44,244 bases of DNA. Origin: Betaproteobacteria bacterium. Its GTDB lineage: Bacteria; Pseudomonadota; Gammaproteobacteria; Burkholderiales; SG8-41. The first letter of the stretch is position 1. The number at the start of each line of letters is the position of its first letter. The translations under genes and the position numbers were made by a program. Location of the stretch: assembly GCA_016202565.1 (NCBI GenBank), contig JACQOK010000349.1, positions 1 through 44,244 on the forward strand. The letters are read 5' to 3'. Below are positions 15,801 through 37,087 of the stretch, in pieces. A model generated the notes under the pieces. It did no database searches and was not told the origin of the DNA. It worked only from the letters and a program-made list of their open reading frames with translations.

Positions 15801-16047
15801 CGCTGCGCTCCAGCGCCGGCACGTCGAGCGGGCCCCGCAGCCGGTATCCGTTCGGCAGGTTGTACGCGGGATTGCCCGGCGTCATTTGGTCGATCACCCA
15901 GATCTGCCGCTGGGAAAACGACAGGGGAACGGCGTCGTGATTCGGGCGCTTGGGTATCGCGCAGTCGTTCACTCGCTTGCGGGTGGCCGCCCCCAACCGC
16001 TGCTGCAGCAGCGCTCTTTTCTCAGGGGAAAGGTCTGACATGCTCAT
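12799..16047 (-). CDS. NRPS module C-A-T (A-domain code Gly-like); no TE, R or terminal C domain
   Basis: The C domain has SFSQRQIW and HHIVADGLS (HHxxxDG). The A domain has LSYAAL, YVIYTSGSTGRPKGV, FDIAVLE, NLYGPTETTV, GELYIGGDGVALGY, YRTGDRA and PNGKIDR. The T domain has FFEMGGYSLL. The 10-residue code read by eye is DILQLGLVWK. Confidence 0.95.
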   Translation of the reverse strand: MSMSDLSPEKRALLQQRLGAATRKRVNDCAIPKRPNHDAVPLSFSQRQIWVIDQMTPGNPAYNLPNGYRLRGPLDVPALERSVNEIIKRHEGLRTTFVVRDGEPVQRIHPDLEIRVKVTPLDHLRGEERENKLQALASEESLRSFDLSRLPLIRVSVFRLGAVEHVLILNFHHIVADGLSFGVFMRELDAFYRAYTGGADARPLELAVQYADFAVWQRQRMAGEAACADQIEFWQRQLAGTLPVLELPGDRPRPALQSFNGSNVFFGIPAPVAEDLKTLGAREGCTVFMTLLAAFQVLLQRYSGADDIVIGTPVAARTQGELDPLIGNFLNMAALRCDLSGDPAFIELLRRTRDTTLNAFSNSGVSFEALAKHLKLERDPSRNPVFQVILQVLAGSAPKIGDLQVSSFHFDLKFAQFDLGLHLYEEDQGYVGRFEYCTDLFEARTVERLSSNFQQLLRVFARNPWQKISELPLLSVVERSLVLDEWNQTGADYPAGALVHELFEAQVKRAPSRTALTVGAAALSYAALGARAARVSRLLRARGIGRGQRVGLCVERGADMVAAMLGILKAGAAYVPLDPSFPTERLRFMAEDAGLALLVSTTALSGTLDMPGERQLLLDAAAAAIDSAAVIPLPGDAPAARPEDPAYVIYTSGSTGRPKGVVVPHRAVVNFLTSMAREPGLTENDVLVAVTTLSFDIAVLELLLPVTLGATVVIAAPDEATDGRALSALLDQHRATVMQATPVTWRMLVETGWTGRVPFKALVGGEALPKDLADQLIARGVELWNLYGPTETTVWSTCARITDPSGGITIGRPIANTSVRILDARKNLSPIGVPGELYIGGDGVALGYWNRPELTAERFIPDPFSTAPGATLYRTGDRARWCNDGTLEHLGRLDDQVKVRGFRIELGEIETVLAGHPDVHQAAVHLWTVKPNDMRIVACCVPARGGVLPAIGLRKHLRARLPEYMIPQYFLAVDEFPLTPNGKIDRRRLPTPVVTESRVGQHDAPADPVEAAIAEIWTKLIQPARPIVRSDKFFEMGGYSLLGLRALRLIEEKLGKRLEFVVLFQETLADIAARCRSGEPAP

Positions 16048-19000: not shown

Positions 19001-20771
19001 GGTCAATGCCCTGGCTCTTGCGATCCTTCTTCCAACTCCCGTCGGCGGGATAGATGACGTTCCGGATGTCGATCCCGAGGTGCGGCTCGAGAATGTCGGA
19101 GCAGCGATCGACCTCCTGTCTGAATACGTGCCACGTCTCGTAGAGATCGCAGGCCATGCCCACGTAGTGATCGCCGATGCCGGGCAACAGCAGGATTACG
19201 GGGCGCCGCGATTCGTCCGCCCGGCCGGTAAGGACCCGTTTCGAGCGTGCGTCGCCGAGGGCGGTGATGGCGTCCTTCCTGTCCTCACAGAGGAGATACC
19301 GCCGGTGTGAGAACGCCTTGCGCCCGGTCTGCAGGGTGTAGGCGATGTCACCCATGTTCACGGCATCGTTCCGGTCAAGGAACTCGCGCAAGTTGTGCGT
19401 GGCCTCGTCCAAGGCTCGTTCAGTCTTCGCCGAAAGAACCAGCAAGTGTGGCGAGCGGGCTGCGGCCGATGCCGCCGCCTGCGGCGGCGCCTCCTCGAGG
19501 ACTATGTGCGCGTTGGTCCCGCCCATGCCGGTGGACATCACGCCCGCTCGCCTGGGACCGTCGCCCACCCATTCCCGCAACCGCGCGTTGACATAGAACG
19601 GGGTGGCCGGAAAGTCGATTTCGGGATTGGCTTCGCTGAAATGGAGATTGGCCGGAAGGGTTCGGTGCTCGAGGGCGAGAACGGTCTTGATCATGCCGGC
19701 GATCGCGGCTGCGGCGTCGAGGTGGCCGATATTGGTCTTCACCGAACCAATGGCGCAGTAGCTGCAACGCTGCGTGAATGTGCGAAACGCCTTGGTCAAG
19801 GCCCTGACCTCGATCGGATCCCCGACGGGGGTTCCCGAACCGTGCGCTTCTACGTAGGTGATGCTGTCAGCTTCGACCCCGGCATTGGCCAGCGCCTCCA
19901 CGACAGCGTCGGCCTGGCTCGCGACGCTCGGCGCGGTGTAACCGGCTTTTTCGGAACCGTCGTTGTTGACGGCCGAGCCCTTGATCACGGCATGTATGGT
20001 GTCGCCGTCGGAGAGCGCGTCCGCGAGCCGCTTGAGCACAACGATGCCGCCGCCGCTGCCGAAAACGGTGCCGTTCGCCCGGGCGTCGAAAGCCCGGACG
20101 TGCCCGTCCGGAGAGACCACCCCGCCGCCGTCGTAGAAGTACCCGGCGCGGTGCGGAACGCGCACCGATACCGCCCCGGCGAGCGCCATATCGGACTCCC
20201 CGCTCAACAGGCTCTGGCGGGCCAGGTGGACCGCGACCAGGGAGGTCGAGCACGCGGTCTGAATCGTGATGCTGGGCCCCCTGAGATTGAACTTGTAGGA
20301 GATCCGGGTGCTCAGAAAATCCTTGTCGTTTCCGATGAGCGTGGGGATGTAATCCTCGGCGAGCCGGCTTACCAGCCCGACGTTCATGAAATAGGTGTTG
20401 AGAGCCGCTCCGGTAAAGACCCCAATGCGCCCCTGATAGCGCTCCGGGTCGCAGCCCGCATGTTCGAGCGCTTCATGGGCCAGCTCCAGCAGGATGCGGT
20501 GCTGCGGATCCATGGTCCTCGCCTCCATCGGCGAGTAGCCGAAAAACGCTGCATCGAACTGACCCGGCTCCTCCAGGACCGGCGCCACCTTCACGTAAGC
20601 CGGGTTGGAAAGCCAGACCGCGGGCACGCCGGATGCCACGAGCTCCTGGTCCGAGAACCTCGTGATCGACTCGACGCCTGCTGCGAGGTTGTGCCAGAAC
20701 TCGTCGAGGTTGCGCGCCCCCGGAAACCGGCCGGACATGCCAACGATCGCGATGTCGAACTCGTTGTCCAT
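16083..20771 (-). CDS. Type I PKS module KS-AT-KR-carrier
   Basis: Track ORF is trimmed to ATG 20771 (MDNEFDIAIVGMSGRFPGA), 8 nt after the upstream stop. KS motifs are TACSTS, EAHGSGT and NIGH (about 20762-19488). AT motifs are GHSMGE and HAFH, malonyl-type (about 19199-18282). KR motifs are VITGGTGGIG and YSAAN (about 17234-16647). The carrier has LGGHSL (about 16364-16137). No DH or ER motifs were seen. Confidence 0.95.
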   Translation of the reverse strand: MDNEFDIAIVGMSGRFPGARNLDEFWHNLAAGVESITRFSDQELVASGVPAVWLSNPAYVKVAPVLEEPGQFDAAFFGYSPMEARTMDPQHRILLELAHEALEHAGCDPERYQGRIGVFTGAALNTYFMNVGLVSRLAEDYIPTLIGNDKDFLSTRISYKFNLRGPSITIQTACSTSLVAVHLARQSLLSGESDMALAGAVSVRVPHRAGYFYDGGGVVSPDGHVRAFDARANGTVFGSGGGIVVLKRLADALSDGDTIHAVIKGSAVNNDGSEKAGYTAPSVASQADAVVEALANAGVEADSITYVEAHGSGTPVGDPIEVRALTKAFRTFTQRCSYCAIGSVKTNIGHLDAAAAIAGMIKTVLALEHRTLPANLHFSEANPEIDFPATPFYVNARLREWVGDGPRRAGVMSTGMGGTNAHIVLEEAPPQAAASAAARSPHLLVLSAKTERALDEATHNLREFLDRNDAVNMGDIAYTLQTGRKAFSHRRYLLCEDRKDAITALGDARSKRVLTGRADESRRPVILLLPGIGDHYVGMACDLYETWHVFRQEVDRCSDILEPHLGIDIRNVIYPADGSWKKDRKSQGIDLKKMLGRGADAPEGREAANLNRTLVAQPALFTVEYAMARLWQSLGITPDAIVGHSMGEYVAACVAGVLSLEDALRLVATRARLVNALPQGAMLAVTLPEAELLPLLPGDLSISLINGPSLCVVAGPAAAVADFEKTLNAKSILCRHVQNAHAFHSRMLDPIVEPFEKEVGKVRLNAPAIPYISNVTGTWITRSEAADPAYWALHATRTARFSDALHELWRFTNPILLEAGPGRTLAVLAMQHPDRCNGGDPLAVSSIRHDYENQSDVEFLWHAIGRLWLAGVGIHWDNAPSGGRRRRVPLPTYPFARQTHWMETTPPGADERQEHDQTSGMRGFDEWFYVPAWKREPPFGAPRRPRDDAFWLIFADRYGGGGQVKAHLDGLRLAAAFVRFGDRFAQCGDGSFELNPAGIDNYLKLFEVLAVGAAPKAINIIHLGSLIRDDREHADYSCAARQEFGFYSLLHIAQALGELNVSVPVSIGIISNRVHEVTGEERLAPEMATVLGPCGVIPKEFPNVKCFNIDLPDEQPIDSLPGEVIARIVSEFADPCRGEVVAYRGRYRWRRDFERVALPKALSSEASEHPSGLGRLRRNGVYVITGGTGGIGLSISKYLAQTCQPRIVLTKKSAFPDKSVWKQLSLTREAPQSVLRTIDALMEIEASGGQVEVQVAEVSNRAQMQSVLENALERYGAINGIIHAAGIVKAELIQSKTRATADSVLAPKVDGTMILLDLLEDVPLDFLVLFSSMTAIDTPYAHCDYSAANCFLDACTYAANARNRFHTLTINWPGWKEIGQLAELETAPGLEGWKKAALDKAIATRDGVEAFARALNSDLQQVLVSPEDLQEVLARSRAPVDPDRYLSLARTGRAMPARRGTVQEGADAPTNEVEAAVAEIWRIVLGLEQIGVHEQFSRLGGHSLLAMQIVSKVRALYEIRFSLREFFEAPTIAQLASVIQARILAEIESMTDDQAQRLVSQE

Positions 20772-20779
20772 CGCAGGTG

Positions 20780-22408
20780 CTAACGACTCGCCTCGATGAC
20801 CGGTTCGGGCAATGCCTTGCGATCGGCTTTCCCGCTCGGCGTCAGCGGGATTTCCCCGATTCTTTCGAAGCGGTTGGGGATCATGTAGTCGGGAAGGCGC
20901 CTTCGCAGGCAGCGCTTCAGATCCTCGATGTCCAAGTCCGGTTTGCACACCAGGTAGGCGATGATGAGGATGACGCTCTCCGAGTATTTCCTGACCATCG
21001 CCACGCAGTCGACGATGCCGGCGTGTTCCCGGATCGTGTTCTCGATCTCGCCCAGCTCGATCCGCAATCCGCGGATCTTGACCTGATGATCCTGGCGGCC
21101 CAGGTACTCGATGTTCCCGTCGGGCAGCCAGCGGGCGACGTCTCCCGTTCGATAGATTCTTTCGCCGGGGTTGACGGGATTGTCGGTGAACTTCTCGGCC
21201 GTCAGCGCCGGGTTGTTGAGATAGCCCCTGGCGAGGCCGACTCCGGCAATGCACAGCTCTCCGGTCTCGCCGATGCCGACCTGCCGGCCGTCCTTGATGA
21301 CGTAGAGCCGGATGTTCTGGATGGGGCGCCCGATCGGAATGCTCTCGAAATCATTGTGCGCCGGGCAGTCGAAATGGGTGACGTCGACGGTCGCCTCGGT
21401 GGGGCCGTAGAGGTTGATCAGGCGGGTCCCGGTCCGGCTGCGCAGGATGGCGTTGAACTTCTTCACGTGGCTCGGCATCAGCGTTTCGCCGCTGGCGAAT
21501 ACCTGCCGGACCGAAGCGAGCTTCTCCGGCGCCTCGCCGCGCTTGGCCTCCAGATACTCCAGGAAGACGTTGAGCATCGAAGGAACGAAGTGCATGACGG
21601 TGGTGCGATGTCTCCTGATGGTCTCGACGATGGCCGGGGGATTTCTTTCCCCGCCCGGCATCAGGAAGCAGAGCCTGGCGCCCTGCAGAGCCCACCAGAA
21701 GAGTTCCCACACCGAAACGTCGAAATAGTAGGGCGTCTTCTGCAGGATGATGTCGTTTTCATCGATGGGGTACGCCTGCTGCATCCAGTGCAGGCGGTTG
21801 ACCACGGCGCGGTGCTCGATCATCACGCCCTTCGGTTTGCCGGTCGACCCGGACGTGTAGATCACGTACGCCAGGTCGTCCGGCTTGTTCAGAATGGCGG
21901 GGTTCGCCGCCGGGCCACGGTAGATGTCCGGATCGTCGAGATCGATGGCGAGCCCTGCAAACGCATAGCGCCCGGCGGTCGCGCCGTGGACCAGCAGCAT
22001 CCTGACTCCCCCGTCCTTCAGCATGTAGTCGATGCGCTCCGGCGGATGGTCGGGCGGCACCGGGAGATAGGCGCCTCCCGCCTTCACGATGCCCAGAACG
22101 CCGATGATCATGGCGAAGGACCGCTCGACCATCAGTGCAACGACCTCGCCCGGCCCGACACCTTTCGCCCTCAGCAGATGCGCCAGCTGATTGGCCTTTT
22201 CGTTCAACTGCGCGTAAGTGAGCGACGTCACCCCGAACACTTTGTCGTGGTCGCAGAGAACCGCCGTCTGAGACGCGTGCGTAGCGACCTGCGCCTCGAT
22301 CAATTCCTGCAGCGTGACGTTATCCGGGAACGCGGCCTCGGTTCGGTTGAACCCGGCGATCCGCGCGAGATCGCTTTCATTCGCGACCGGTGTGGCGTGG
22401 GTATCCAT
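20780..22408 (-). CDS. Stand-alone adenylation enzyme with no carrier domain (code Ser-like)
   Basis: Track ORF 20780..23281 is trimmed to ATG 22408 (MDTHATPVANESDL...), 14 nt after the acyl-CoA DH stop. Motifs are LTYAQLNEKAN, YVIYTSGSTGKPKGV, FDVSVWE, NLYGPTEATVDV, GELCIAGVGLARGY, YRTGDVA and PSGKADR. The code read by eye is DVWHFSLVDK. The protein ends 15 aa after the A10 Lys. Confidence 0.9.
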   Translation of the reverse strand: MDTHATPVANESDLARIAGFNRTEAAFPDNVTLQELIEAQVATHASQTAVLCDHDKVFGVTSLTYAQLNEKANQLAHLLRAKGVGPGEVVALMVERSFAMIIGVLGIVKAGGAYLPVPPDHPPERIDYMLKDGGVRMLLVHGATAGRYAFAGLAIDLDDPDIYRGPAANPAILNKPDDLAYVIYTSGSTGKPKGVMIEHRAVVNRLHWMQQAYPIDENDIILQKTPYYFDVSVWELFWWALQGARLCFLMPGGERNPPAIVETIRRHRTTVMHFVPSMLNVFLEYLEAKRGEAPEKLASVRQVFASGETLMPSHVKKFNAILRSRTGTRLINLYGPTEATVDVTHFDCPAHNDFESIPIGRPIQNIRLYVIKDGRQVGIGETGELCIAGVGLARGYLNNPALTAEKFTDNPVNPGERIYRTGDVARWLPDGNIEYLGRQDHQVKIRGLRIELGEIENTIREHAGIVDCVAMVRKYSESVILIIAYLVCKPDLDIEDLKRCLRRRLPDYMIPNRFERIGEIPLTPSGKADRKALPEPVIEASR

Positions 22409-22422: not shown

Positions 22423-23577
22423 TTACTTTCCGGGCCCGCCGGCTCGAGCGACGAACATCTTCCCCAGAATGTCCTCGTGGACCTGGGTCGTGCCCTCGAT
22501 GATCTCCATGATCTTGGCGTCCCGGTAATAGCGGGAAACCGGGGAGGAGCCGTGACAGCCTGCGGCACCTCTGATCTGAACGGCATCGGAGGCCGCCCGC
22601 ACGGCGGCTTTTGACGTGAAGTACTTGGCCGTCAAGGTCCTTTCGAACGCTTCGGGGAGGTGATCGTCCTCGGCGCGGCAGGCGTTGTGGCACAAGAGAC
22701 TTCCCGCTTCCAGGTCGGTACCCATCCTGGCGATCAACGATCGGATCATGCCGAGGTCGCCCACGGTGCCGCCGCCGATCCTCCGCGCGGCCGCGTAGGC
22801 GATGCTTTCTTCGAAGCACCCGCGCAGGAGTCCCAATGCAGACCAGGCGGTGCTGATCCGCCCATACTGCAGGCCCACGGGAGCGACGTGCGACAAGGCA
22901 AAGCCCGGCTTGCCGATGAGGTTCTCCGACGGAACTTCCACATCCTCGAAGTGCAACTGGGCCAGACCGGCCGCGCGGAACCCCATCAGGTCGCAGATGG
23001 GCTCGACGCCAAGACCGGGAGCGTTCCGGGGCACCAGGCAGGCCGCCGGACGCCGCTCGAGCCTGCCAAACACGAGAAACAGGTCCGCGAACTGGGCGCA
23101 GCTGATCCACTTCTTGTGACCGTTGAGAAGAAGGCTTTCGCCGCCGGAAGTCCGGGTGAATTCCGTGGTCAGAGACTGCAGGTCGCTCCCTGCTCCCGGC
23201 TCCGTCAGCCCGAACGCCCCGATCATCTTTCCGGTGGCGAGCGGAGGCAGCCAGCTGCGCTTCTGCTCGGCCGTGCCCCACTTGAGCAGGGCCATGGAAA
23301 CCATGGACTGGACCGTAAGCACGCCGGTCAGTGCCGAAGATCCTCTCCCGAGGGCTTCATTCAGCAGACCGAACGTGACGGCGTCGGATCCCTGGCCGCC
23401 ATAATCCGCCGGCAGGCTGCAGCCGAGGTAACCGCGCTGCGCCAGGCTGGAGATCACGGACCGGGGAATTTCCTGCTCGCGATCCCACTGCTCCGCAAAG
23501 GGCTCGACGTTGAGCTTCACGAAGGACTTGAATTCCTCGTGCCTGCTCGCTTGCGAGTCGGTCAGCAGCCGCCGCAT
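22423..23577 (-). CDS. Acyl-CoA/acyl-ACP dehydrogenase family flavoprotein (FkbI/ZmaI-like context)
   Basis: Motifs are FGLTEPGAGSDL, the ACAD middle and C-terminal pattern, YRDAKIMEIIEGTTQV (catalytic Glu region) and a C-terminal 4-helix region. Confidence 0.9.
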   Translation of the reverse strand: MRRLLTDSQASRHEEFKSFVKLNVEPFAEQWDREQEIPRSVISSLAQRGYLGCSLPADYGGQGSDAVTFGLLNEALGRGSSALTGVLTVQSMVSMALLKWGTAEQKRSWLPPLATGKMIGAFGLTEPGAGSDLQSLTTEFTRTSGGESLLLNGHKKWISCAQFADLFLVFGRLERRPAACLVPRNAPGLGVEPICDLMGFRAAGLAQLHFEDVEVPSENLIGKPGFALSHVAPVGLQYGRISTAWSALGLLRGCFEESIAYAAARRIGGGTVGDLGMIRSLIARMGTDLEAGSLLCHNACRAEDDHLPEAFERTLTAKYFTSKAAVRAASDAVQIRGAAGCHGSSPVSRYYRDAKIMEIIEGTTQVHEDILGKMFVARAGGPGK

Positions 23578-23598: not shown

Positions 23599-23862
23599 TC
23601 AAGCGGCCGAGTGGCCGTTTTTTCTCAGGACGAAGGCCGCCGTCGCGTTGAGCGACTTGAAATTCTCCATGTCGAGGTCGTCCATTCCCACTTCGATGCC
23701 GAAAGCTTTCTCGATGAACGTCATCAACTGGACGGCGAACAGGGAATTGACGATGCCCGATCCGAAGAGATCGTCGTCGTCATCCAGCTTCGCGATGGCG
23801 ATCGAGCCCAGTATGAAAGCCCTGACCGTATCCTTGATACCGCTTGCCTGTTCGGGACTCAT
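23599..23862 (-). CDS. Free-standing acyl carrier protein (87 aa)
   Basis: This is the C-terminal 87 codons of track ORF 23599..24888, starting MSPEQASGIKDTV. The candidate Ppant serine lies in LFGSGIVNSLFAVQLMTFIEK. Its ATG (23862-23860) overlaps the TGA of the upstream dehydrogenase (ATGA). Confidence 0.8.
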   Translation of the reverse strand: MSPEQASGIKDTVRAFILGSIAIAKLDDDDDLFGSGIVNSLFAVQLMTFIEKAFGIEVGMDDLDMENFKSLNATAAFVLRKNGHSAA

Positions 23863-24800
23863 GCGCTTCTCCGCTTCGTTGCATCGGCCCGCGCCGCTTC
23901 GGGCGCGGGATTTATCGCCCTTGCCGCAGCCTCCCCGCCTCTTTCCTCGGGATACACATGGAATCCTCTTCCGGTTTTCCGTCCCAGATGGCCGGCATGC
24001 ACGAACTTTCTCAACAGGGGACAGCAGCGGTACTTCGGGTCGTGGAAGCTCTCGTAGAGAACGTCGAGAGAGCGCATCACCGTGTCGAGCCCGATCAGGT
24101 CCGCCGTCTCCAGCGGCCCCATCTTGTGCCCGAAGCATTTCTTGAAGATGAGGTCGATCTTCTCCGCCGTCGCCACGCCGTCCTGCAGGGCGAACGCGGC
24201 CTCGTTCATGAACAGGTGCGAGATCCGGTTCGATACGAAGCCCGGCAGGTCCTCGACGATGATGGCCTCCTTGTTGAGGCGAGAAAGCAGCTGCAGCAAG
24301 CTGTCGACAGCGCGGTCCGAGGTATGGAATCCGCGGATCACTTCGACCGTCGGCTTCAAATGGACCGGGTTCATGAAGTGCACTCCGACCACGTTGGCCG
24401 CGCGCTTGGTGGCGCTCGCTATCTGCGTGATGGAAATACACGAGGTATTGGCGCCGAAACAGACTTCGGGAGGCACAGCTTTCTCCAGCTTCTGGTAGAC
24501 GCCCTTCTTGATGTCCCAATCCTCGGTTACGTTCTCGATGATCAAATCGCAGGAGGAAACGTCCTTCAGTTCCGTCGTCAAAACCAGGCGCCTCGCGGCA
24601 TCTTCCCTGGTCACAGCAGGCAGGGTTTTCGAGAGCAAGGGACCAAAGCGGACGTTCTTCAGAACCTCCTCTTCCGCCTTTCTCAATATTTCCTCCGACA
24701 GGTCGACCACCACCGCGTCGATCCCATGCAGAACCAGATCCGTGATCACCCCGGTCCCGATGTTGCCCGCTCCCACGACCCCGACGCGCGCTGGTCTCAT
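23859..24800 (-). CDS. 3-hydroxyacyl-CoA dehydrogenase family protein (FkbK/ZmaG-like context)
   Basis: The Rossmann motif is VGVVGAGNIGTG. Other motifs are HFMNPVHLKPTVEVIRG and GFVSNR, with a C-terminal helical domain. The preferred start is ATG 24800 (MRPARVGVVGAG), preceded by GAAGGAAGGGAG. The track start at 24836 is the alternative. Confidence 0.9.
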   Translation of the reverse strand: MRPARVGVVGAGNIGTGVITDLVLHGIDAVVVDLSEEILRKAEEEVLKNVRFGPLLSKTLPAVTREDAARRLVLTTELKDVSSCDLIIENVTEDWDIKKGVYQKLEKAVPPEVCFGANTSCISITQIASATKRAANVVGVHFMNPVHLKPTVEVIRGFHTSDRAVDSLLQLLSRLNKEAIIVEDLPGFVSNRISHLFMNEAAFALQDGVATAEKIDLIFKKCFGHKMGPLETADLIGLDTVMRSLDVLYESFHDPKYRCCPLLRKFVHAGHLGRKTGRGFHVYPEERGGEAAARAINPAPEAARADATKRRSA

Positions 24801-24817
24801 TTCGCCGCTCCCTTCCT

Positions 24818-25678
24818 TCAACCTCTTCTGAACCACAACATGCCCATCTTCGCGGTCTCCGCGACCTGCTTCTCCAGCCTGAATCCATGCCGCCGCAAGT
24901 CTTCCTCTATTTCCCGTTCCTTGCCGTCATGGTATTCGATGATGATCCGGCCTATTATCGAGAAGGTGGGCGCGCTGATGCCCGCCAGGATGTCGTACTC
25001 CGATCCCTCGCAGTCCATTTTCAGCAGATCGATACGAGAGATGCTTTCCCTGCTGACAATATCGTTCAAAGAGATGGTAACTACCGATTCACGCTCGTCG
25101 TTGTCCGCATTTCCGTAGGCGATGCGATTCTGTGGACTGGCGGCTTTCGGGATCGTGACGACTTCGTTCGATCTGGAGGTGACGGCGTGGTGGTAGGGAA
25201 CGATTGTGTCCTGAAGATTGTTCCTTCTTATGTTTTCCAGGATGCAGCCACAGGCTTCGCGGTTCGGTTCGAACGCATACACTTTTTTCGCGCCGCTGAA
25301 GGCCGCATAGAGCGAAAACAGTCCGATATTCGCTCCGATGTCGACCACCACCGTATCGGGGTCTACCGGGTAGACCCTGTCGCAAAACACCTGGAACAAA
25401 ACGACCAGGTCGAGCTGATGGCCGGAAAGAATCAATTCCCCGCCTTTCTTGAGACGAATGCGTTTCTCCGGCGGCGACGTGTGATTCAAATAGTGGCGTA
25501 TGAGCGGACCCGGCCTTTTGAATACGGGCCATGCTCTAGCGACAAGCGGCGCATTTCTGAGGACTTTTGGCAGAAGCGCCCGCGCTCTGGCAGGCAACAA
25601 TGCCTTGGCGATCCTGCGAGCAAACTCGATTGCATCGAAGTTTCCTGCGCTGACGCCGATTTTGCTGGGGGTTTCCAT
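24818..25678 (-). CDS. FkbM-family methyltransferase
   Basis: Motifs are VVDIGANIGLFSLYAA, VYAFEP and IDLLKMDCEGSEYDIL. The start is taken as METPSK (25678), 1 nt after the loader stop. ATG 25690 is an alternative. Confidence 0.85.
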   Translation of the reverse strand: METPSKIGVSAGNFDAIEFARRIAKALLPARARALLPKVLRNAPLVARAWPVFKRPGPLIRHYLNHTSPPEKRIRLKKGGELILSGHQLDLVVLFQVFCDRVYPVDPDTVVVDIGANIGLFSLYAAFSGAKKVYAFEPNREACGCILENIRRNNLQDTIVPYHHAVTSRSNEVVTIPKAASPQNRIAYGNADNDERESVVTISLNDIVSRESISRIDLLKMDCEGSEYDILAGISAPTFSIIGRIIIEYHDGKEREIEEDLRRHGFRLEKQVAETAKMGMLWFRRG

Positions 25679-25679
25679 G

Positions 25680-28600
25680 TCACGAAGCATGCTGCCGCAT
25701 TGCGTTATTGCGTCTGCGCTGACCCCGCAGGGCGGCCACTGCGGTCTCGGTGCCGGCGTGGGCATCCGCGGAGGCCGCGCCGAGTTTCGCGGCGAGCAGC
25801 CTCACCGTCGGGCACTCGAACAGGCTGACGATGGAGAGGGTTTGCTTCAGCTCCTTCTTGATCGTGGCAATCAGCTGGACCGCACGGAGCGAGGTTCCGC
25901 CCGCTTCGAAGAAATTGTCGTTGAGCCCGATTCGCGGACGGCCCAGGATCGTTCTCCAGATGTTGAGCAGTGCGGTTTCCAACGCGGTGCCCGACACCAC
26001 GTCCTGCCCCGCGCCGGGAAGTTCCTTTTCGAGCCGCCATTCCTCGATGGCTCGCGTAAGCCCCTCGATGGTGCACAGACGTTCCGCGAGCGTCTGCAGA
26101 CGCTCGGATAGAGCGGCGGCCCCGAAGCGCGACACGTGCGGCCGGGTGTCCGGCTCGGCGGCGGCAGGAGCCTCGCCGCCGCCGCCCCGCGCGGCCTCGT
26201 CGGGGGCGTATTCGACACCCGCCGCGCGTTCCGCCGCAACGATCCACGATCCGGCCGTTTCGTCCAGATCCTGCTCGCCGATGCTCTTGATGAATTCCCT
26301 GACCGGCGCGTTCTTCTCCGTGCGCCGATAGGCGAGCTCCACGTAACGCTTGTTTTCCCTGAGCGCACGCTGGCCAAGCTGGGACAGGATCGCGTGTTCC
26401 ACGCCTTTACCCAGCACCCGGCAGCTCAGTAGAAAGGTGTCCACCCGGTAGCGGTCGGCCCGGGTCTCGTAGAGCACGACGCCGACCAGCCCATAGTCGC
26501 CGAACCGGTCGGCCACGCAAACCGCCAGACCGGTCGTGTGTTCGCGCTTCAGGAAGTCTCCGATCTCCTTCTCCGAGCGCCGGACCGTCGTGAAGTTGAA
26601 TTGATTCGTCCTGAACGTCAGCTGCGAGACACGACCGAGCTGGTCCTCCGCCGCCTCCGCAATGTCGATGCGAAGCTCGAGTTCTTCGATGAACGCCTTC
26701 AAGGAACAGTTCTTCTCGCGGAACCGCTGCCGCTGCGCGTTCTCCTGATACATCCGGGTGCGCTTGCGATCTTCTTCGGTCGCATCCGAGTGGTCGAACG
26801 CCCACACGTGGTCCAGAAACGCCGGGAACGACTCGCTGTCACGCGGCAATTGCAGCGCCAGAACGCCCGGGCAGTTGATCCTGACATCCGCGCAATCGAC
26901 CGGGTTGTCGTCGATGAAGATGAAGCTGTCCAACCCGAGACCAAGCTCCGCCGCCAGCGATTTGACGTTGTCCGACTTGCTGTTCCAGTTGATGCGCCAC
27001 GAAACCAGGTGCTCGCGCTTCAGCACCATGTCGGACCGCTGGTCGAAGACTTCCAGCACATCGTCTTCGTTATTCTTGCTGCACAGGCACAGGAGCATGC
27101 CGGCGTTCATTTGCCCGATCATGAACTCCTGCAGCTTGCGATACGCCGCGCTGACTTCGACCCCGAGCGCACCGTCCTCCCCGCATACGCCCTTCCACAG
27201 CGTGTTGTCGCAGTCGAGCACGATCACCTTGAACGGTTTTCTCCTCAGGCTGAAGAGGGTCCGGAACAGCGCCGTCCCGATCGCGGCATAACACTCCGTG
27301 CTGTAGGGAATACGGCCCAGGCGATGACTATGCGGATCGTAGTAGTCCCTGACCGGATAGCGCTGCAGCGGCAAGGCCGAACCGATGGCGCGGACATTCG
27401 GCAGGGCGCCCGCCTCCGCCAGCAAGATCCGCTCGGCGTCGCTCAGCGCCGCCTTCAGATCGGCGTCGGCATCCACAGACGGAGTCGTCGGACAGACGCA
27501 CAGGATGAGCGGCGCGGTGGCCTGCTTCATGAACGCCGCGAGTGCGGTGCAGAAGTCCCGGACGTTTCGCTGCAGTCCGCCGGCGGCGCGGCGAGCTTGA
27601 CCCAGTCCGGCATGACCCAGTCCGGTATCGACGGCCGCCCCGTTCCGGGTTGCATACAGGTTGAACAATCCTGAATGCTCGAGCAATCGCTCGCGCTCGA
27701 CGGCGCAGCGGTAGCCCTTCGCCGCGAGCAGGCCTTCGATCCGCTTGACTGCCTCCCCGGCAGGATCGTGAATTTCCATTGCGATCTGGGCGATTTTCGG
27801 CCAGTCGCGCTCATCGATCCCGTTGATGATATCCAGCTCGCTCTTTTCCGCATCGATCTTGAGGAGATCGATCCTGTCGATCCGGTTCTCGCGGATGATC
27901 TCCGACACGGACGTCATGCGGCACTCGTGGGTGGTGCGGCGGAGCCGGTCGGCGGTCAACTCGGCAACATATTGCTCCACCGATTCCCCGTCAACCGATG
28001 TCTCGCTGTTCAGAGTGTTCCGCACGACCGCCTGAATGGCTTCGCGGTCCCTGGTTTCATCCGCGTAGAACCCCGAGAACACCGAAGACTTCTCATAGAA
28101 GGTCAAGGTCGCCGATTTGGACCGGTCCGACACGCCGACGTTTGCGGCCCGGACATTTGCTCCGTAGGCCTCGCAGTTGACCCTCAAGAGATCGTAAGCG
28201 GCCGGCGCGGGCTCGAAGGCGTAGATTTTCGGGTCCTTGCAGCGGCTCGTCACAAACAGGGAAAAAAGCCCGATGTTCGCCCCGATGTCCAGCACGGTGG
28301 CGCCGTCGTGCAGGCGGATGCCGTGCCTCAGGTAGCACTGATCCTCAAAGATTTCCCGGTAGAGATAGTCCGTTTCGTAGTGGTTCAAATGGGCGATTTC
28401 GAGTCCGTTGGGCAGAACATGTCTCGACCGGCCGCCGAAACATTGGTCCGCCCTTTCCCGGGTGAGCGTCATGCCCGCGTGCCGATCCGCCGCGGCCCAC
28501 TCCTCCAGGGCGAGCAGAATGACGTTGACTCCGTCGCGATTCCTGCGCAACGCGCTTTCGCCATCCAGCAGCTGCTGGAAGATCTGGTCGAAGGGGGCGA

Positions 28601-29618
28601 ATTCGAGGTGGAGCGGAGCGCTGAAATGCGCGCCCCAGAAGTTCAAGGCGTCCTCGATCGGCTCAACGGTGAAGTTCGAGGCGATGACGAGCCTTGTCGC
28701 CGCCGTCTTTCCGGCAGTGTCGGGGCGGTCGAGACAGGTGAATGCGACCCCCGCCAGTTCCAGATACCGCCTGCCCGAGTCGTCGAAGGCCCGAACGCTG
28801 CCGACAAAATTCTTTCGATCACCGTCGCCGTCCTGAACCAGGGTAGCGTGCGCCCACAGCGTATCAGGCAAATTGCCATCCGACAGCTCGGCTTTCTCGA
28901 TCGACTGCAGCACGAAGGTCCTGCCGTCCTCGATGAAGAAGGACCCGAGGAGTTGCGTCACGGAATCGAGCACGGTCGGATGCAAGCCAGCGGGTTCGGT
29001 TTCCCCGTGCTGCCGCGCCCCGGAAAGCAGCCCCAGGGATTGGCCGCCCATCCTCCAGACCGAGGAAATCCTTTGAAAGGCCGGCCCGTAGTGATTGCCG
29101 TTTTCGCGCAGCATCCGGTAGAAGCGCTCCGCGTCGATCGCGGCATGCGACTGCGCCCGGAAGGCCTCGATGGAAAACGCATCGGTGCCTGCCGCTGCGG
29201 CGAACGACGGGGGCTTGCGCTCGATCTCGAGCCGCGCGGCATACTGCCGCTCGGGTATCCCGGTGCTCCCTCGATCGACTTCCGCTTCATAGAACGTGTA
29301 TTCCACGCGTCCGCCGTCGTGATCCCTCGCCTCGACCCTCATGTCGATGTCTTCTGCCCCAAGAATGATGGGCCGGCGAAAGATCACGTTCCGCACCACG
29401 CCCGGAACGCGCCGAGCGAGCCTGTGATCCACGCGCCGCGCCATTTCGATGTAGAACGAACCGGGCAGAACGACCATGTCCTGAAAACCATGATCCGCCA
29501 GATAGGGCAACGAATGCAGGCCGACCCTGAATTCCGCGCAGGTCGCTCCCGGCCGATCCGTGGAGTGCATCACCGGCCCGATCATGATGGAGGGAGTTTC
29601 AGGCGTCGTCGTGCTCAT
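25680..29618 (-). CDS. Multidomain loading protein: PKS-type DH, FkbH N-lobe interrupted by an FkbM-type methyltransferase, HAD (FkbH) core, GNAT-like domain, carrier domain
   Basis: DH (about 29546-28734) has LADHGFQDMVVLP and LDSVTQ. FkbH N-lobe part 1 (about 28697-28485) has VIASNFTVEP..QIFQQLLD. MT (about 28421-27645) has VLDIGANIGLFSLF, IYAFEP and IDLLKIDAEKSE. FkbH N-lobe part 2 lies at about 27572-27234. HAD (about 27233-26784) has VLDCDNTLW, CSKNN and FIDDNP. The GNAT-like end (about 26696-26289) has FRTNQFNFT. The T domain (about 26006-25779) has FFEAGGTSL. Confidence 0.9.
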   Translation of the reverse strand: MSTTTPETPSIMIGPVMHSTDRPGATCAEFRVGLHSLPYLADHGFQDMVVLPGSFYIEMARRVDHRLARRVPGVVRNVIFRRPIILGAEDIDMRVEARDHDGGRVEYTFYEAEVDRGSTGIPERQYAARLEIERKPPSFAAAAGTDAFSIEAFRAQSHAAIDAERFYRMLRENGNHYGPAFQRISSVWRMGGQSLGLLSGARQHGETEPAGLHPTVLDSVTQLLGSFFIEDGRTFVLQSIEKAELSDGNLPDTLWAHATLVQDGDGDRKNFVGSVRAFDDSGRRYLELAGVAFTCLDRPDTAGKTAATRLVIASNFTVEPIEDALNFWGAHFSAPLHLEFAPFDQIFQQLLDGESALRRNRDGVNVILLALEEWAAADRHAGMTLTRERADQCFGGRSRHVLPNGLEIAHLNHYETDYLYREIFEDQCYLRHGIRLHDGATVLDIGANIGLFSLFVTSRCKDPKIYAFEPAPAAYDLLRVNCEAYGANVRAANVGVSDRSKSATLTFYEKSSVFSGFYADETRDREAIQAVVRNTLNSETSVDGESVEQYVAELTADRLRRTTHECRMTSVSEIIRENRIDRIDLLKIDAEKSELDIINGIDERDWPKIAQIAMEIHDPAGEAVKRIEGLLAAKGYRCAVERERLLEHSGLFNLYATRNGAAVDTGLGHAGLGQARRAAGGLQRNVRDFCTALAAFMKQATAPLILCVCPTTPSVDADADLKAALSDAERILLAEAGALPNVRAIGSALPLQRYPVRDYYDPHSHRLGRIPYSTECYAAIGTALFRTLFSLRRKPFKVIVLDCDNTLWKGVCGEDGALGVEVSAAYRKLQEFMIGQMNAGMLLCLCSKNNEDDVLEVFDQRSDMVLKREHLVSWRINWNSKSDNVKSLAAELGLGLDSFIFIDDNPVDCADVRINCPGVLALQLPRDSESFPAFLDHVWAFDHSDATEEDRKRTRMYQENAQRQRFREKNCSLKAFIEELELRIDIAEAAEDQLGRVSQLTFRTNQFNFTTVRRSEKEIGDFLKREHTTGLAVCVADRFGDYGLVGVVLYETRADRYRVDTFLLSCRVLGKGVEHAILSQLGQRALRENKRYVELAYRRTEKNAPVREFIKSIGEQDLDETAGSWIVAAERAAGVEYAPDEAARGGGGEAPAAAEPDTRPHVSRFGAAALSERLQTLAERLCTIEGLTRAIEEWRLEKELPGAGQDVVSGTALETALLNIWRTILGRPRIGLNDNFFEAGGTSLRAVQLIATIKKELKQTLSIVSLFECPTVRLLAAKLGAASADAHAGTETAVAALRGQRRRNNAMRQHAS

Positions 29619-30360
29619 TCATCGCGTCCGTCAGACGACGGCAGGGCAGCGAGCGCACGGTAATTCGCTCGGGGTCAGCCATTGGGCCGTGAACACGCTG
29701 TACGACGAGGGCGCCGGTCAGGCCAGGGCCGGGCACGAAGCCATGAAGCGCCCAGCCGCACCGGTCTCCCGGCGTGCTGTCAACGCGCAGGATGCAGGCG
29801 GGCATACCCGGAGCAAGGGAAACGTCGAAGCGACCAAGCCCATGGCTCAGGCCAGCGCCGAGCGCCTTGACGAAGGCCTCCTTGCGCGTCCAGCAGTTGA
29901 AGAACCCGAGCGGCCTGTCGCGCGGAGCGAGCGCGAGATACGCGGCGTTCTCCCGGGGGGAGAACGCGTGTGCTGCGATTTCGTCGGCGCCGGGGATCAC
30001 GCGCACAGCTTCGATGTCCACTCCGATCTCGCGTGCCGGCGAAAAGGCGTAAACGGCGACATCATCGCAGTGAGAGACGTTGAACTGCAGTCCGGAATGT
30101 GCCAAAGCTCCTCCGAGCGCAGGCTTGCCGCGCCGTCCGTACGTCAGCTCCACCGAGCCCGGCCGAACTCCCAGCCGCATCCCGAGCAACTGGCGCAGTC
30201 GCGCGCGCGCGACAGTAAATCGGCAGCGATCGCGATCCAATGCAAAGCGCCTCGCGCGCTCTCGCTCTTCCGCCGAAAGCAGGGCGGCCGACGCGCCGAC
30301 GGTATCGGGGCCTACGTCGATTCGGGTCACCACGACCTCGATTGCGCTGTCATCCGCCAT
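29599..30360 (-). CDS. Sfp-type 4'-phosphopantetheinyl transferase
   Basis: Motifs are RGKPAL, FNVSHC, IGVDIE and WTRKEAFVKALG. Its 3' end overlaps the loader start by 20 nt. Confidence 0.9.
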   Translation of the reverse strand: MADDSAIEVVVTRIDVGPDTVGASAALLSAEERERARRFALDRDRCRFTVARARLRQLLGMRLGVRPGSVELTYGRRGKPALGGALAHSGLQFNVSHCDDVAVYAFSPAREIGVDIEAVRVIPGADEIAAHAFSPRENAAYLALAPRDRPLGFFNCWTRKEAFVKALGAGLSHGLGRFDVSLAPGMPACILRVDSTPGDRCGWALHGFVPGPGLTGALVVQRVHGPMADPERITVRSLPCRRLTDAMNEHDDA

Positions 30361-30839
30361 GGGGTTTTTCCGCTCTCAGGTTCGGCCTGCGCCATTGCGC
30401 CATGAAGCGTAGGTCGGTACGTTTACATACGCCTGTTCGCCATCGGATTGCCCCATGCGCCAAAGGGGCTATGTCAAAGGGAGTTTCAGCAATGCCGTAT
30501 CTCGAACCCTGGACTGCAAGCTCTCTTACCGGATCGACGACCACACCGATCCGTGGATGCGCATGAGCCGGATGGCTCAGCGTTTCACCGGCTGGCAACC
30601 CCGTCGCTTCTTCATGCGTGTCTAAGATCGCCTCGTTGTCGCGCCAGGACAACAAGCTGAGGATTTCTGGATGCCCACCTCCGCGTTTCATCACGGTCAC
30701 AGCGCTTCCGGCACCGTCGGCAAAGTTACCGATTCCGCGGCGCTGGTTGCCGTGGCGGATGAGTGGATCGCCGTCAGCCGGCTCGCCATCACCGGCCGCA
30801 CGGTTCGCGCCGCTGATGTGTTGAAAACTGGAGTGCGCC

Positions 30840-35737: not shown

Positions 35738-35740
35738 ACG

Positions 35741-37081: not shown

Positions 37082-37087
37082 ACTCGC

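What the first reader, a model, noticed from the sequence alone, without database searches (positions are those of the whole stretch)
25680..29618. Unusual loading protein: DH, then an FkbH split by an inserted FkbM methyltransferase, then a carrier domain
SEEN: aa 1-300 form a PKS-type dehydratase. It has LADHGFQDMVVLP (catalytic His and the +9 Pro present, usual +4 Gly replaced by Asp) and LDSVTQ (DxxxQ). aa ~305-380 (VIASNFTVEP...QIFQQLLD...LEEW) and aa ~683-795 together look like the N-terminal lobe of FkbH-like proteins. They are separated by a ~260-aa FkbM-type methyltransferase (VLDIGANIGLFSLF, IYAFEP, IDLLKIDAEKSE). Next come the HAD core (VLDCDNTLW, CSKNN, FIDDNP), the GNAT-like FkbH end, and a T domain (GGTSL). 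A second free-standing FkbM MT follows immediately at 24818-25678. KNOWN: FkbH-type enzymes take 1,3-bisphosphoglycerate and tether a glyceryl unit to a carrier. A DH-KR-FkbH-ACP loading module (bryostatin BryA) has been proposed to reshape that unit into lactate. FkbM is an O-methyltransferase. INFERENCE: The starter is a glycerate-derived C3 unit that is dehydrated and/or O-methylated in cis, for example methoxy-acrylyl or O-methylglyceryl. I do not recall a domain-insertion architecture like this being described.
Basis: partly seen in the sequence, partly recalled or inferred. Interest (0 to 1): 0.8.

Follow-up and report, generated by a model that had tools for sequence, protein, structure and literature searches.

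The report
Glycerate loader with embedded methyltransferase domain
This 1312-residue protein is a starter-unit loader for a small polyketide/peptide assembly line, and it has the same "DH-MT-FkbH-carrier" design already described for the oocydin and phormidolide synthases, where it is proposed to make a 2-methoxyacrylyl starter. The protein is therefore real and correctly read by the first stage, but it is not a new kind of enzyme.

Summary
ORF 25680-29618(-) encodes PKS-type DH (aa 23-299), FkbH N-lobe part a (305-376), a ~300-aa insert holding an FkbM-type methyltransferase (377-680), N-lobe part b (681-796), FkbH HAD plus GNAT-like core (797-1117) and a PCP-type carrier (1216-1277). All catalytic motifs are intact.

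Uninserted FkbH-T homologues align to both flanks of the insert, with only a 4-12-residue loop between them. So this is a true domain insertion.

It is not new as a module. The same topology occurs in more than 100 representatives of 50%-identity protein clusters. These include the N-terminal loader of the OocJ-type PKS of the oocydin producer Musicola paradisiaca Ech703 (38% identity over aa 303-1286), a Gynuella sunshinyii PKS, and cyanobacterial FkbH(MT)-PCP-sulfotransferase loaders of the 2-O-methyl-3-sulfoglycerate type.

Published work calls the module DH-MT-FkbH-ACP and proposes a 2-methoxyacrylyl starter. None of the five papers whose FkbH passages I checked describes the MT as an insertion.

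The context is new: a free-standing loader with a PCP-type carrier. It sits in a compact orphan cluster with a Ser-A/ACP/3HCDH/ACAD cassette, one KS-AT-KR-ACP module and one C-A-T module. The core is conserved in uncultured soil bacteria of several phyla.

Verdict: new member of a known kind, of moderate interest.

The parts
25680..29618 (-). Whole gene: free-standing loading protein DH-[FkbH N-lobe with inserted FkbM MT]-HAD/GNAT-like-T, 1312 aa
   Evidence: 100% identical to a GenBank MAG protein annotated 'FkbM family methyltransferase [Betaproteobacteria bacterium]'
28722..29552 (-). PKS-type dehydratase domain (aa 23-299). His43 sits in HGFQDMVVLP and Asp218/Gln222 in LDSVTQ; HYGPAF is at 176.
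   Evidence: Pfam PF21089 and PF14765; PDB sequence hits to CurK, CurJ and other DHs; the motifs are ≥90% conserved in a 39-sequence alignment (38 homologues plus the query)
28491..28706 (-). FkbH N-lobe, first part (aa 305-376; beta-alpha-beta-alpha-beta, VIASNFTVEP...VNVILLALEEW)
   Evidence: Aligns to residues ~5-90 of uninserted FkbH-T homologues; AF2 model residues 9-77 have pLDDT 74-90
27579..28490 (-). Inserted module (aa 377-680): linker, a conserved ~60-aa pre-MT segment, the FkbM-type SAM methyltransferase core (aa 441-638, motif I DIGANIG at 444) and a second linker
   Evidence: PF05050 and TIGR01444. It faces a gap in uninserted homologues. Foldseek finds class I MTs. The linkers at model residues 78-86 and 362-378 have pLDDT below 50. 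Relatives at 34-44% identity occur as stand-alone proteins and as domains just before T domains in NRPSs.
27231..27578 (-). FkbH N-lobe, second part (aa 681-796; alpha-beta-alpha-beta-alpha, then the helix leading into the HAD core)
   Evidence: Aligns to residues ~96-210 of uninserted homologues; the Foldseek top hit 3slr covers 297 columns
26268..27230 (-). FkbH core (aa 797-1117): HAD-IIIC phosphatase part (DCDNT at 802, SKNN, DDNP) and GNAT-like part with LSCRVLG (Cys1066)
   Evidence: TIGR01686 at 5.9e-91 and TIGR01681; 3slr_A sequence hit at 2e-28; Foldseek hits to GNAT acetyltransferases
25788..25973 (-). Carrier domain of the PCP type (aa 1216-1277, FFEAGGTSL, Ser1243)
   Evidence: PF00550 at 2.5e-15; the best PDB hits are NRPS PCPs
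29599..30360 (-). Sfp-type phosphopantetheinyl transferase, immediately upstream. A PPTase homologue lies directly upstream of the loader in 10 of the 21 related loci examined.
24818..25678 (-). Extra free-standing FkbM-family methyltransferase. It has low GC (0.55) and no orthologue in any of the 21 related loci examined, so it is a lineage-specific addition.
23859..24836 (-). 3-hydroxyacyl-CoA dehydrogenase family protein (FkbK/ZmaG/ClbD-like)
   Evidence: PF02737 and PF00725; conserved right after the loader in 17 loci
23599..23862 (-). Free-standing acyl carrier protein (87 aa)
   Evidence: conserved in 17 loci
22423..23577 (-). Acyl-CoA dehydrogenase family protein (FkbI/ZmaI/ClbF-like)
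20780..22408 (-). Free-standing NRPS adenylation domain with specificity code DVWHFSLVDK (the L-Ser code)
16083..20771 (-). Single cis-AT PKS module KS-AT-KR-ACP. The KS Cys/His/His triad is intact and the AT carries GHSMG and HAFHS.
12799..16047 (-). NRPS module C-A-T (A-domain code DILALGLVWK, Gly-like). In three betaproteobacterial relatives (L001, L022, L029) it is missing from this position directly after the PKS.
11166..12802 (-). Two alpha/beta hydrolases (12047-12802 and 11166-12065). They are candidate release enzymes and are distant relatives of exosortase-A-associated hydrolases 2 and 1.

Best explanation
The protein is the loading module of a small hybrid PKS/NRPS line. Every step below is inferred from conserved motifs or from homology; none was assayed here.

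1. The FkbH HAD and GNAT-like core takes 1,3-bisphosphoglycerate, dephosphorylates it and passes D-glycerate through Cys1066 to the phosphopantetheine arm of its own C-terminal T domain. This rests on established FkbH chemistry; all motifs are present.
2. The FkbM-type methyltransferase sits as an excursion domain in a surface loop of the FkbH N-lobe. It O-methylates the 2-hydroxyl of glyceryl-S-T. This is inferred from the homologous FkbH(MT)-PCP-ST loaders, whose products carry 2-O-methylglycerate.
3. The N-terminal DH removes H-2 and the 3-hydroxyl. The product is 2-methoxyacrylyl-S-T, a stable methyl enol ether of pyruvate. This is inferred from the published proposal for the homologous DH-MT-FkbH-ACP modules of phormidolide and oocydin.
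4. The starter passes to the KS of the adjacent KS-AT-KR-ACP module. In this window the chain then goes to a C-A-T module with a Gly-like code, and the alpha/beta hydrolases release it.

A neighbouring Ser-A/ACP/3HCDH/ACAD cassette most likely supplies aminomalonyl-ACP. How that unit enters the line is unresolved.
For: - Domains and motifs are intact. They are invariant or nearly invariant in a 39-sequence alignment (38 homologues plus the query).
- The insertion is shown by uninserted homologues.
- The AF2 model gives alternating beta/alpha elements with pLDDT 74-91 for both N-lobe halves and pLDDT below 50 for the linkers at both ends of the insert. Foldseek finds 3slr, GNATs and class I MTs.
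- The protein aligns end to end with N-terminal loaders of characterised or named PKSs: P0219 (Musicola paradisiaca Ech703, an oocydin producer) 38% over q303-1286; P0224 (cyanobacterial) 35% over q72-1279; P0222 (Gynuella sunshinyii) 36% over q106-1276. All keep the DH His and Pro, DxxxQ, MT motif I, DxDxT and the SCR Cys.
- P0190 has FkbH(MT)-PCP-sulfotransferase-C-A-T-E and is 41% identical over q309-1306. That matches the OMT-FkbH-PCP-ST loaders proposed to make 2-O-methyl-3-sulfoglycerate (PMC8609519, PMC10143770, PMC13122637).
- Literature: the first OocJ module is DH-MT-FkbH-ACP (PMC4552970). [quoted passage not shown]
- In many representatives the same unit sits at the N-terminus of 1.7-6.8-kaa megasynthases, which fits a loading role.
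- The synteny loader-3HCDH-ACP-ACAD-A-PKS holds, in that order, in most of the 21 related loci from several phyla, often with a PPTase just upstream.
Against: - No step has been shown biochemically for this protein, and the 2-methoxyacrylyl assignment in the reference systems is itself a proposal.
- Matilla et al. judged the OocJ DH and MT to lack canonical motifs and to be possibly non-functional (PMC4552970).
- The DH has Asp instead of Gly at His+4.
- The regiochemistry of methylation (O-2 or O-3) and the order of methylation and dehydration are not determined.
- FkbK- and FkbI-like enzymes next door could also oxidise glyceryl-S-T.
- I could not inspect the model coordinates, so the 3D reassembly of the two N-lobe halves is inferred from sequence and secondary structure only.
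Confidence: 0.7

Rival explanations
1. The protein is part of a methoxymalonyl-carrier pathway. FkbH loads glycerate on the fused T domain or on the free ACP. The adjacent 3-hydroxyacyl-CoA-DH-like and acyl-CoA-DH-like enzymes oxidise C3 to give hydroxymalonyl. The embedded FkbM MT then does the job of FkbG and makes a methoxymalonyl extender for the PKS module.
For: FkbK-like, ACP and FkbI-like genes lie directly downstream and are conserved with the loader. This is the classical gene set around FkbH.
Against: - A free-standing A domain with the exact L-Ser code DVWHFSLVDK follows the ACAD gene. The order 3HCDH-ACP-ACAD matches clbD-E-F and fits aminomalonyl-ACP synthesis (zwittermicin and colibactin; my own knowledge). 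The oxidising enzymes therefore already have a substrate.
- This reading gives no role to the conserved, motif-intact DH.
- I did not find the oxidising cassette in the held sequence of the cyanobacterial locus L014, and the cited papers do not mention one for the OocJ and phormidolide loaders.
- The PKS AT carries the malonyl-type HAFHS motif in all relatives.
Confidence: 0.12
2. DH acts without prior methylation and gives pyruvoyl-S-T, as in the first half of the BryA DH-KR-FkbH-ACP lactate route. The MT acts elsewhere, for example on a later hydroxyl, or it is a non-catalytic structural relic.
For: Matilla et al. considered the OocJ DH and MT non-functional (PMC4552970).
Against: - MT motif I and many other MT residues are invariant across homologues of several phyla.
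- The same MT insert in the sulfotransferase-containing loaders goes with 2-O-methylglycerate in the products (PMC8609519, PMC10143770).
- Oocydin-type congeners proposed to keep a methoxyvinyl group are known (PMC6174933).
Confidence: 0.1
3. The MT makes 3-O-methylglyceryl-S-T or 2-O-methylglyceryl-S-T as the final starter. The DH is inactive on it, or it acts in trans on the beta-hydroxy product of the downstream KR, which has no DH of its own.
For: The downstream module is KS-AT-KR-ACP without a DH. The DH has an unusual Asp at His+4, conserved in at least 90% of the aligned homologues.
Against: DH is fused N-terminally to the loader in hundreds of relatives, whatever follows downstream. 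This includes trans-AT PKSs whose later modules have their own DHs. The catalytic His/Asp pair is intact.
Confidence: 0.08

Closest known systems
OocJ module 1 (DH-MT-FkbH-ACP) of the oocydin/haterumalide trans-AT PKS, and the equivalent first module of the phormidolide PKS
   Same: The domain set and order are the same, including the MT lying inside the FkbH N-lobe: query aa ~310-800 aligns in one stretch. BLASTP identity is 38% over q303-1286 with the Ech703 protein, and the DH His, DxxxQ, MT motif I, DxDxT and SCR Cys are shared. The proposed product is a 2-methoxyacrylyl starter (PMC6174933).
   Different: Here the module is a free-standing 1312-aa protein, not the N-terminus of a multimodular trans-AT PKS. 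Its carrier is PCP-like (GGTSL) rather than ACP-like (GVDS). It feeds a cis-AT KS-AT-KR-ACP module in a compact PKS/NRPS cluster. The DH has Asp at His+4, where the relatives have Asn, Gly or Ala.
OMT-FkbH-PCP-ST loading modules of aeruginosin-type NRPSs (suomilide SuoB, varlaxin AerB, dysinosin, banyaside BslA)
   Same: A cyanobacterial protein with the matching domain string, P0190 (FkbH(MT)-PCP-ST-C-A-T-E), has the same FkbH with the FkbM-type MT inserted in the N-lobe, followed by a PCP. It is 41% identical over q309-1306. The named proteins themselves were not compared here. Their products contain 2-O-methylglycerate.
   Different: Those modules have no DH. The 3-OH is sulfated by a sulfotransferase domain instead of being eliminated, and the module is fused to NRPS modules.
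BryA-type loading module DH-KR-FkbH-ACP (bryostatin)
   Same: A DH fused upstream of FkbH and a carrier, with glycerate reshaped on the carrier.
   Different: A KR is present and there is no MT. The proposed product is lactate rather than a methyl enol ether.
FkbH-T units in NRPS lines (vioprolide, corramycin, cystomanamide) and uninserted FkbH-T proteins (loci L025-L038)
   Same: The uninserted FkbH-T proteins of loci L025-L038 share the N-lobe, HAD, GNAT-like and PCP-type carrier parts at 38-46% identity. The vioprolide, corramycin and cystomanamide sequences were not compared; those FkbH domains are reported to load glycerate on a T domain (PMC10099666, PMC8949500).
   Different: They have neither MT insert nor DH; the N-lobe is continuous.
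Interrupted adenylation domains of NRPSs (an MT inserted inside an A domain)
   Same: The design principle is shared: a tailoring MT is embedded in a loop of the substrate-loading domain and acts on the carrier-bound unit.
   Different: The host fold differs (ANL adenylation domain versus FkbH N-lobe). This is an analogy only and comes from my own knowledge.

Membership tests
FkbH-like glyceryl transferase/phosphatase (TIGR01686) | Match to the family model above the curated cut-off | tested here: met
   305 bits against a cut-off of 146.65, aa 797-1117
FkbH-like glyceryl transferase/phosphatase (TIGR01686) | HAD DxDxT nucleophile motif and the conserved Cys (SCR) of the acyl-transfer part | tested here: met
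   DCDNT at 802 and LSCRVLG with Cys1066. Both Asp, the Thr and the SCR residues are invariant in a 39-sequence alignment (38 homologues plus the query).
FkbH-like glyceryl transferase/phosphatase (TIGR01686) | Uses 1,3-bisphosphoglycerate and tethers glycerate to a carrier | not testable with these tools
   This needs an in vitro assay with MS of the carrier.
DH-MT-FkbH-ACP loading module (OocJ1 / phormidolide type) | Domain order DH, MT, FkbH, carrier in one polypeptide | tested here: met
   the module is described in PMC4552970
DH-MT-FkbH-ACP loading module (OocJ1 / phormidolide type) | Homology across the whole module to a loader from a known producer | tested here: met
   38% over q303-1286 to P0219 of the oocydin producer Ech703; 35-36% from the DH through the carrier to P0224 and P0222. 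I assigned P0219 as the OocJ orthologue from its organism, its name and its N-terminal loader alignment and motifs (DH through ACP), not from an accession match to the paper.
DH-MT-FkbH-ACP loading module (OocJ1 / phormidolide type) | Placed at the start of an assembly line, next to a KS | tested here: met
   In several relatives (P0219, P0222, P0224, P0161, P0209 and others) the inserted region starts at about residue 270-310 of a 3.4-6.8-kaa megasynthase, leaving room only for the DH. Here the gene lies in one operon-like array with a KS-AT-KR-ACP gene.
DH-MT-FkbH-ACP loading module (OocJ1 / phormidolide type) | Product is 2-methoxyacrylyl-S-carrier | not testable with these tools
FkbM-family SAM methyltransferase (PF05050 / TIGR01444) | Family model match and glycine-rich SAM motif I; class I MT fold | tested here: met
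   86 bits against a cut-off of 37.7; DIGANIG at 444; Foldseek hits to class I MTs
PKS dehydratase (double hotdog) | HxxxGxxxxP His, DxxxQ/H Asp and the GYxYGPxF motif | tested here: met
   His43, Pro52, Asp218, Gln222 and HYGPAF are present. Gly at +4 is replaced by Asp, which is not a catalytic residue.
Aminomalonyl-ACP cassette (ZmaG/H/I/J, ClbD/E/F plus ClbH-A1) in the neighbouring genes | Ser-specific A domain, free ACP, 3-hydroxyacyl-CoA-DH-like and acyl-CoA-DH-like proteins together | tested here: met
   Code DVWHFSLVDK; Pfam assignments; conserved synteny. The family definition comes from my own knowledge. I made no direct sequence comparison with Zma or Clb proteins.
Aminomalonyl-ACP cassette (ZmaG/H/I/J, ClbD/E/F plus ClbH-A1) in the neighbouring genes | A dedicated acyltransferase or AT domain that accepts aminomalonyl-ACP | tested here: inconclusive
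   The only AT is the cis AT, which has the malonyl-type GHSMG/HAFHS motifs. I found no discrete AT in the window.

The most novel reading that the evidence does not exclude
The compact, phylum-hopping cluster (free-standing 2-methoxyacrylyl loader, Ser-derived aminomalonyl-ACP, one KS-AT-KR-ACP module, optional Gly module) makes an undescribed small enol-ether amino acid or dipeptide. One example would be a 2-amino-3-hydroxy-4-methoxypent-4-enoyl unit, a methoxyvinyl antimetabolite in the spirit of AMB or aminoethoxyvinylglycine. It would be produced widely by uncultured soil Betaproteobacteria, Acidobacteriota, Verrucomicrobiota, Gemmatimonadota and others. In addition, the 'interrupted FkbH' would be a general design, not yet pointed out, that places the MT beside the carrier docking site.
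Probability: 0.3. Interest if true: 0.6.

Novelty: new member of a known kind. Interest (0 to 1): 0.35.

Why it matters
The protein itself adds little that is new, because the DH-MT-FkbH-carrier loader is already in the literature for oocydin and phormidolide. Three points are still useful.

1. The sequence comparison shows that what papers write as a linear 'MT-FkbH' is really an MT inserted in a loop of the FkbH N-lobe. This is shared by the enol-ether (DH) loaders and the 2-O-methyl-3-sulfoglycerate (ST) loaders. It gives a rational boundary for domain swaps and construct design.

2. A free-standing 1312-aa version with its own PCP is a far easier target for in vitro work than the multi-thousand-residue trans-AT PKSs such as the 3.8-kaa OocJ-type protein. 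It could settle the still unproven chemistry: which hydroxyl is methylated, the order of methylation and dehydration, and whether the DH is active.

3. The surrounding seven-gene core is conserved at 45-80% identity in metagenome-assembled genomes of several phyla and has no assigned product. It is a reasonable genome-mining target.

Tried and rejected
- A PDB sequence search with an artificially spliced N-lobe plus core did not extend the 3slr match into the N-lobe. Plain phmmer is too insensitive there. The question was settled with uninserted homologues from genomes instead.
- Foldseek of the AF2 model gave 3slr as top hit (297 columns), but the tool reports no residue ranges and I cannot read the coordinates. 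The 3D packing of the two N-lobe halves could therefore not be verified directly.
- I first took ORF 23599-24888 as an 'X-ACP' fusion, and 9353-10390, 30350-31060 and the N-half of 11166-12845 as genes. Codon-position GC showed these are wrong-frame ORFs. The real genes are a 3HCDH, a small ACP, a class I MT and two hydrolases.
- I first read the AMP-binding gene as a fatty-acyl-AMP ligase feeding a lipopeptide. I rejected this because it is an NRPS-type A domain with the Ser code.
- I considered a tetronate or butenolide pathway (FkbH plus a FabH-like enzyme). No FabH-like gene is present.
- Literature searches for an 'interrupted' or 'inserted' FkbH, or for FkbH together with aminomalonyl, returned nothing relevant. 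The phormidolide paper itself is not in the library.
- The high-GC stretch at 40.8-41.7 kb holds only an antisense ORF artefact and has no repeats.

Full report
**1. What is there**

The window is a 44.2-kb contig of a betaproteobacterial metagenome-assembled genome. The protein is 100% identical to a GenBank entry annotated only as 'FkbM family methyltransferase'. ORF 25680-29618(-) is 1312 aa and has the codon-position GC pattern of a genuine gene in this 64% GC DNA (GC3 0.80).

Pfam and NCBIfam give four confident domains:
- a PKS dehydratase at aa 23-299;
- an FkbM-family methyltransferase at aa 441-638;
- the FkbH domain proper (HAD-IIIC plus a C-terminal part) at aa 797-1117, scoring 305 bits against a cut-off of 147;
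- a carrier domain at aa 1216-1277.

These residues are invariant or nearly so in a 39-sequence alignment (38 homologues plus the query). Foldseek of an AlphaFold model of aa 300-1130 (mean pLDDT 71) finds three kinds of structure: 3slr (the N-terminal part of Bacteroides BF1531, an FkbH-like HAD protein), GNAT acetyltransferases and class I methyltransferases. This confirms the 'GNAT-like end' and the SAM-dependent fold.

**2. Is the FkbH really split?**

Yes. A scan of one genome per species returned the full architecture and also shorter relatives that lack both DH and MT. In nine of these, BLASTP gives two collinear segments. Query 310-384 aligns to subject ~13-87 and query ~682-1283 to subject ~96-699 (L025). 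The subject is therefore continuous where the query carries about 300 extra residues.

A MAFFT alignment places the insert between ...VNVILLALEEW and ...LQRNVRDFCTAL..., at about aa 377-680. It lies opposite a 4-12-residue loop in the uninserted proteins. The same insert is present in relatives from a cyanobacterial and a Rhodothermales MAG at 39% identity.

In the model, the two flanks have alternating beta/alpha elements with pLDDT 74-91, while both junctions of the insert have pLDDT below 50, as expected of flexible linkers around an excursion domain. I could not read the coordinates, so the packing of the two halves into one sheet is inferred and not seen.

The inserted unit (aa ~394-689) has relatives at 34-44% identity. 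Some are stand-alone proteins. Others are domains just upstream of T domains in large NRPSs, for example in the cultured Dictyobacter alpinus. It is therefore a methyltransferase type that recurs next to carrier domains in assembly lines.

**3. Is it new?**

No, not as a module. An exhaustive HMMER search with aa 300-800 against 1.84 billion cluster representatives found more than 100 representatives that match the whole N-lobe-a/MT/N-lobe-b stretch in a single piece. Their architectures fall into these groups:
- free-standing DH-FkbH(MT)-T proteins of about 1230-1330 aa (many);
- about 1000-aa versions without DH;
- the same unit at the N-terminus of megasynthases of 1.7-6.8 thousand residues.

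Cluster look-ups name some of them. P0219 is the 3811-aa 'FkbH like protein' of Musicola (Dickeya) paradisiaca Ech703. P0222 is a 6819-aa PKS of Gynuella sunshinyii. P0224 comes from a Pseudanabaenales cyanobacterium. P0245 is an NRPS from Rheinheimera.

The query aligns with P0219 at 38% over aa 303-1286, and with P0224 and P0222 at 35-36% from the DH to the carrier. All catalytic motifs are shared.

Ech703 is a documented oocydin A producer with an ooc cluster. The first module of the oocydin PKS OocJ is described as 'DH-MT-FkbH-ACP' (PMC4552970). Meoded et al. state that OocJ modules 1-2 have the same domain set as the phormidolide PKS. [quoted passage not shown]

A second published relative lacks the DH. 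P0190 from the cyanobacterium Limnofasciculus baicalensis is FkbH(MT)-PCP-sulfotransferase-C-A-T-E and is 41% identical to aa 309-1306. This matches the OMT-FkbH-PCP-ST loaders of suomilide, varlaxin, dysinosin and banyaside, whose products carry 2-O-methyl-3-sulfoglyceric acid (PMC8609519, PMC10143770, PMC13122637).

In five papers I checked the FkbH and methyltransferase passages by term search. They list the domains linearly, and none says that the MT interrupts the FkbH N-lobe. Searches for such a statement found nothing. That topological point is the only part of the finding that may be unrecorded.

**4. How it most likely works**

FkbH chemistry is established: 1,3-bisphosphoglycerate is dephosphorylated and passes through a Cys thioester to glyceryl-S-carrier. 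The sulfotransferase-type relatives end with a 2-O-methyl group in their products, so the homologous MT here most likely methylates O-2 of glyceryl-S-T.

A PKS-type DH abstracts H-2 and eliminates the 3-hydroxyl. With O-2 already methylated, the product cannot tautomerise to pyruvate and stays as 2-methoxyacrylyl-S-T. In the two families, the DH domain and the ST domain are thus alternative ways of dealing with the same 3-OH. This reading is mine; it is consistent with the published proposals but remains unproven.

I give the 2-methoxyacrylyl model a confidence of 0.7. The rivals are listed with their tests in the Rival explanations section: a methoxymalonyl pathway, pyruvoyl formation with an idle MT, and O-methylglyceryl with the DH acting elsewhere.

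**5. The neighbourhood**

Careful gene calling changes the picture given by raw ORFs. The 429-aa ORF 23599-24888 is an artefact that hides two genes: a 3-hydroxyacyl-CoA dehydrogenase (23859-24836) and an 87-aa ACP (23599-23862).

On the minus strand the array is:
- PPTase
- loader
- an extra FkbM MT
- 3HCDH
- ACP
- acyl-CoA dehydrogenase
- a free-standing A domain
- KS-AT-KR-ACP
- C-A-T
- two alpha/beta hydrolases

The A domain has the specificity code DVWHFSLVDK, the canonical L-Ser code. Together with the order 3HCDH-ACP-ACAD, this is the make-up of the aminomalonyl-ACP pathways of zwittermicin and colibactin (my own knowledge; not compared by sequence). It is the better reading of the FkbK/FkbI-like genes than a methoxymalonyl route.

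The cis AT carries the malonyl-type GHSMG/HAFHS motifs in this window and in all relatives where that region was recovered. How an aminomalonyl unit would enter the line is therefore open.

The core loader-3HCDH-ACP-ACAD-A-PKS keeps this order in most of the 21 related loci, often with a PPTase homologue just upstream. The loci are MAGs labelled Betaproteobacteria, Acidobacteriota, Verrucomicrobiota, Ignavibacteria, Gemmatimonadales and others, at 45-80% protein identity. This suggests horizontal spread. In three betaproteobacterial relatives the C-A-T module is not found directly after the PKS, where the hydrolases follow instead. The extra free-standing FkbM gene (GC 0.55) has no orthologue in any related locus examined. 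No product is assigned to this cluster type in anything I could find.

**6. Verdict**

The impression of an undescribed architecture is not right.

This is a new, free-standing, PCP-bearing member of the known DH-MT-FkbH-carrier loading-module family, in an orphan but widespread hybrid cluster. Interest is moderate (0.35). It offers a convenient in vitro model for unproven chemistry, a clearer domain map, and a mining target, but no new kind of system.

Noticed in passing
window 24818-25678 (-): A free-standing FkbM-family methyltransferase sits between the loader and the 3HCDH gene. Its GC content is 0.55 against about 0.64 around it. It has no orthologue in any of the 21 related loci, where the 3HCDH gene follows the loader directly. 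It looks like a recent lineage-specific insertion, possibly adding a second O-methylation.
   Followed up: partly
window 23599-24888 (-), 9353-10390 (-), 30350-31060 (-), 12021-12845 (-): Several long ORFs are wrong-frame artefacts of the high-GC DNA, with Arg/Gly/Pro-rich translations and low GC3. The real genes are a 3HCDH (23859-24836), an ACP (23599-23862), a class I SAM MT (9499-10362) and two alpha/beta hydrolases (12047-12802 and 11166-12065).
   Followed up: yes
window 16083-20771 (-), AT at about aa 690-980 of the ORF: The single PKS module has a malonyl-type AT (GHSMG, HAFHS), conserved in all relatives where that region was recovered. Yet the cluster carries what looks like an aminomalonyl-ACP cassette and has no discrete AT. 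The route of the Ser-derived unit is unexplained.
   Followed up: partly
window 11166-12802 (-): The two alpha/beta hydrolases downstream of the NRPS are distant relatives, below the cut-offs, of 'hydrolase 2' and 'hydrolase 1, exosortase A system-associated' (TIGR03101 and TIGR03100). In L001, L022 and L029 they follow the PKS directly with no NRPS module in between.
   Followed up: partly
window 31115-40820 (+): A divergently transcribed gene set: an NAD-synthase-like amidotransferase, asparagine synthase, an AMP-binding enzyme, CapA/PGA_cap, phosphosulfolactate synthase (ComA), an ATP-grasp protein, 2-phosphosulfolactate phosphatase (ComB) and an alpha/beta hydrolase. It suggests a sulfolactate-derived product. 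It is not conserved next to the loader in the related loci.
   Followed up: no
window 10555-11112 (-) and 8556-9356 (-): A short ORF matches only the C-terminal part of heparinase II/III. A GDSL-like ORF has a translation that degenerates in its second half. These may be gene remnants or assembly frameshifts at the edge of the cluster.
   Followed up: no
L046 (Dictyobacter alpinus) protein residues 1988-2277; L045 protein residues 1483-1813: The same FkbM-type MT subfamily, including its ~50-aa pre-MT segment, occurs as an internal domain directly before T domains in large NRPSs without any FkbH. It is therefore a portable MT module found directly next to carrier domains.
   Followed up: partly
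window 29466-29492 (-), DH aa 43-52: Asp replaces the usual Gly at His+4 of the DH HxxxGxxxxP motif, and it is at least 90% conserved among the aligned homologues. The trans-AT loaders have Asn, Gly or Ala at this position.
   Followed up: partly
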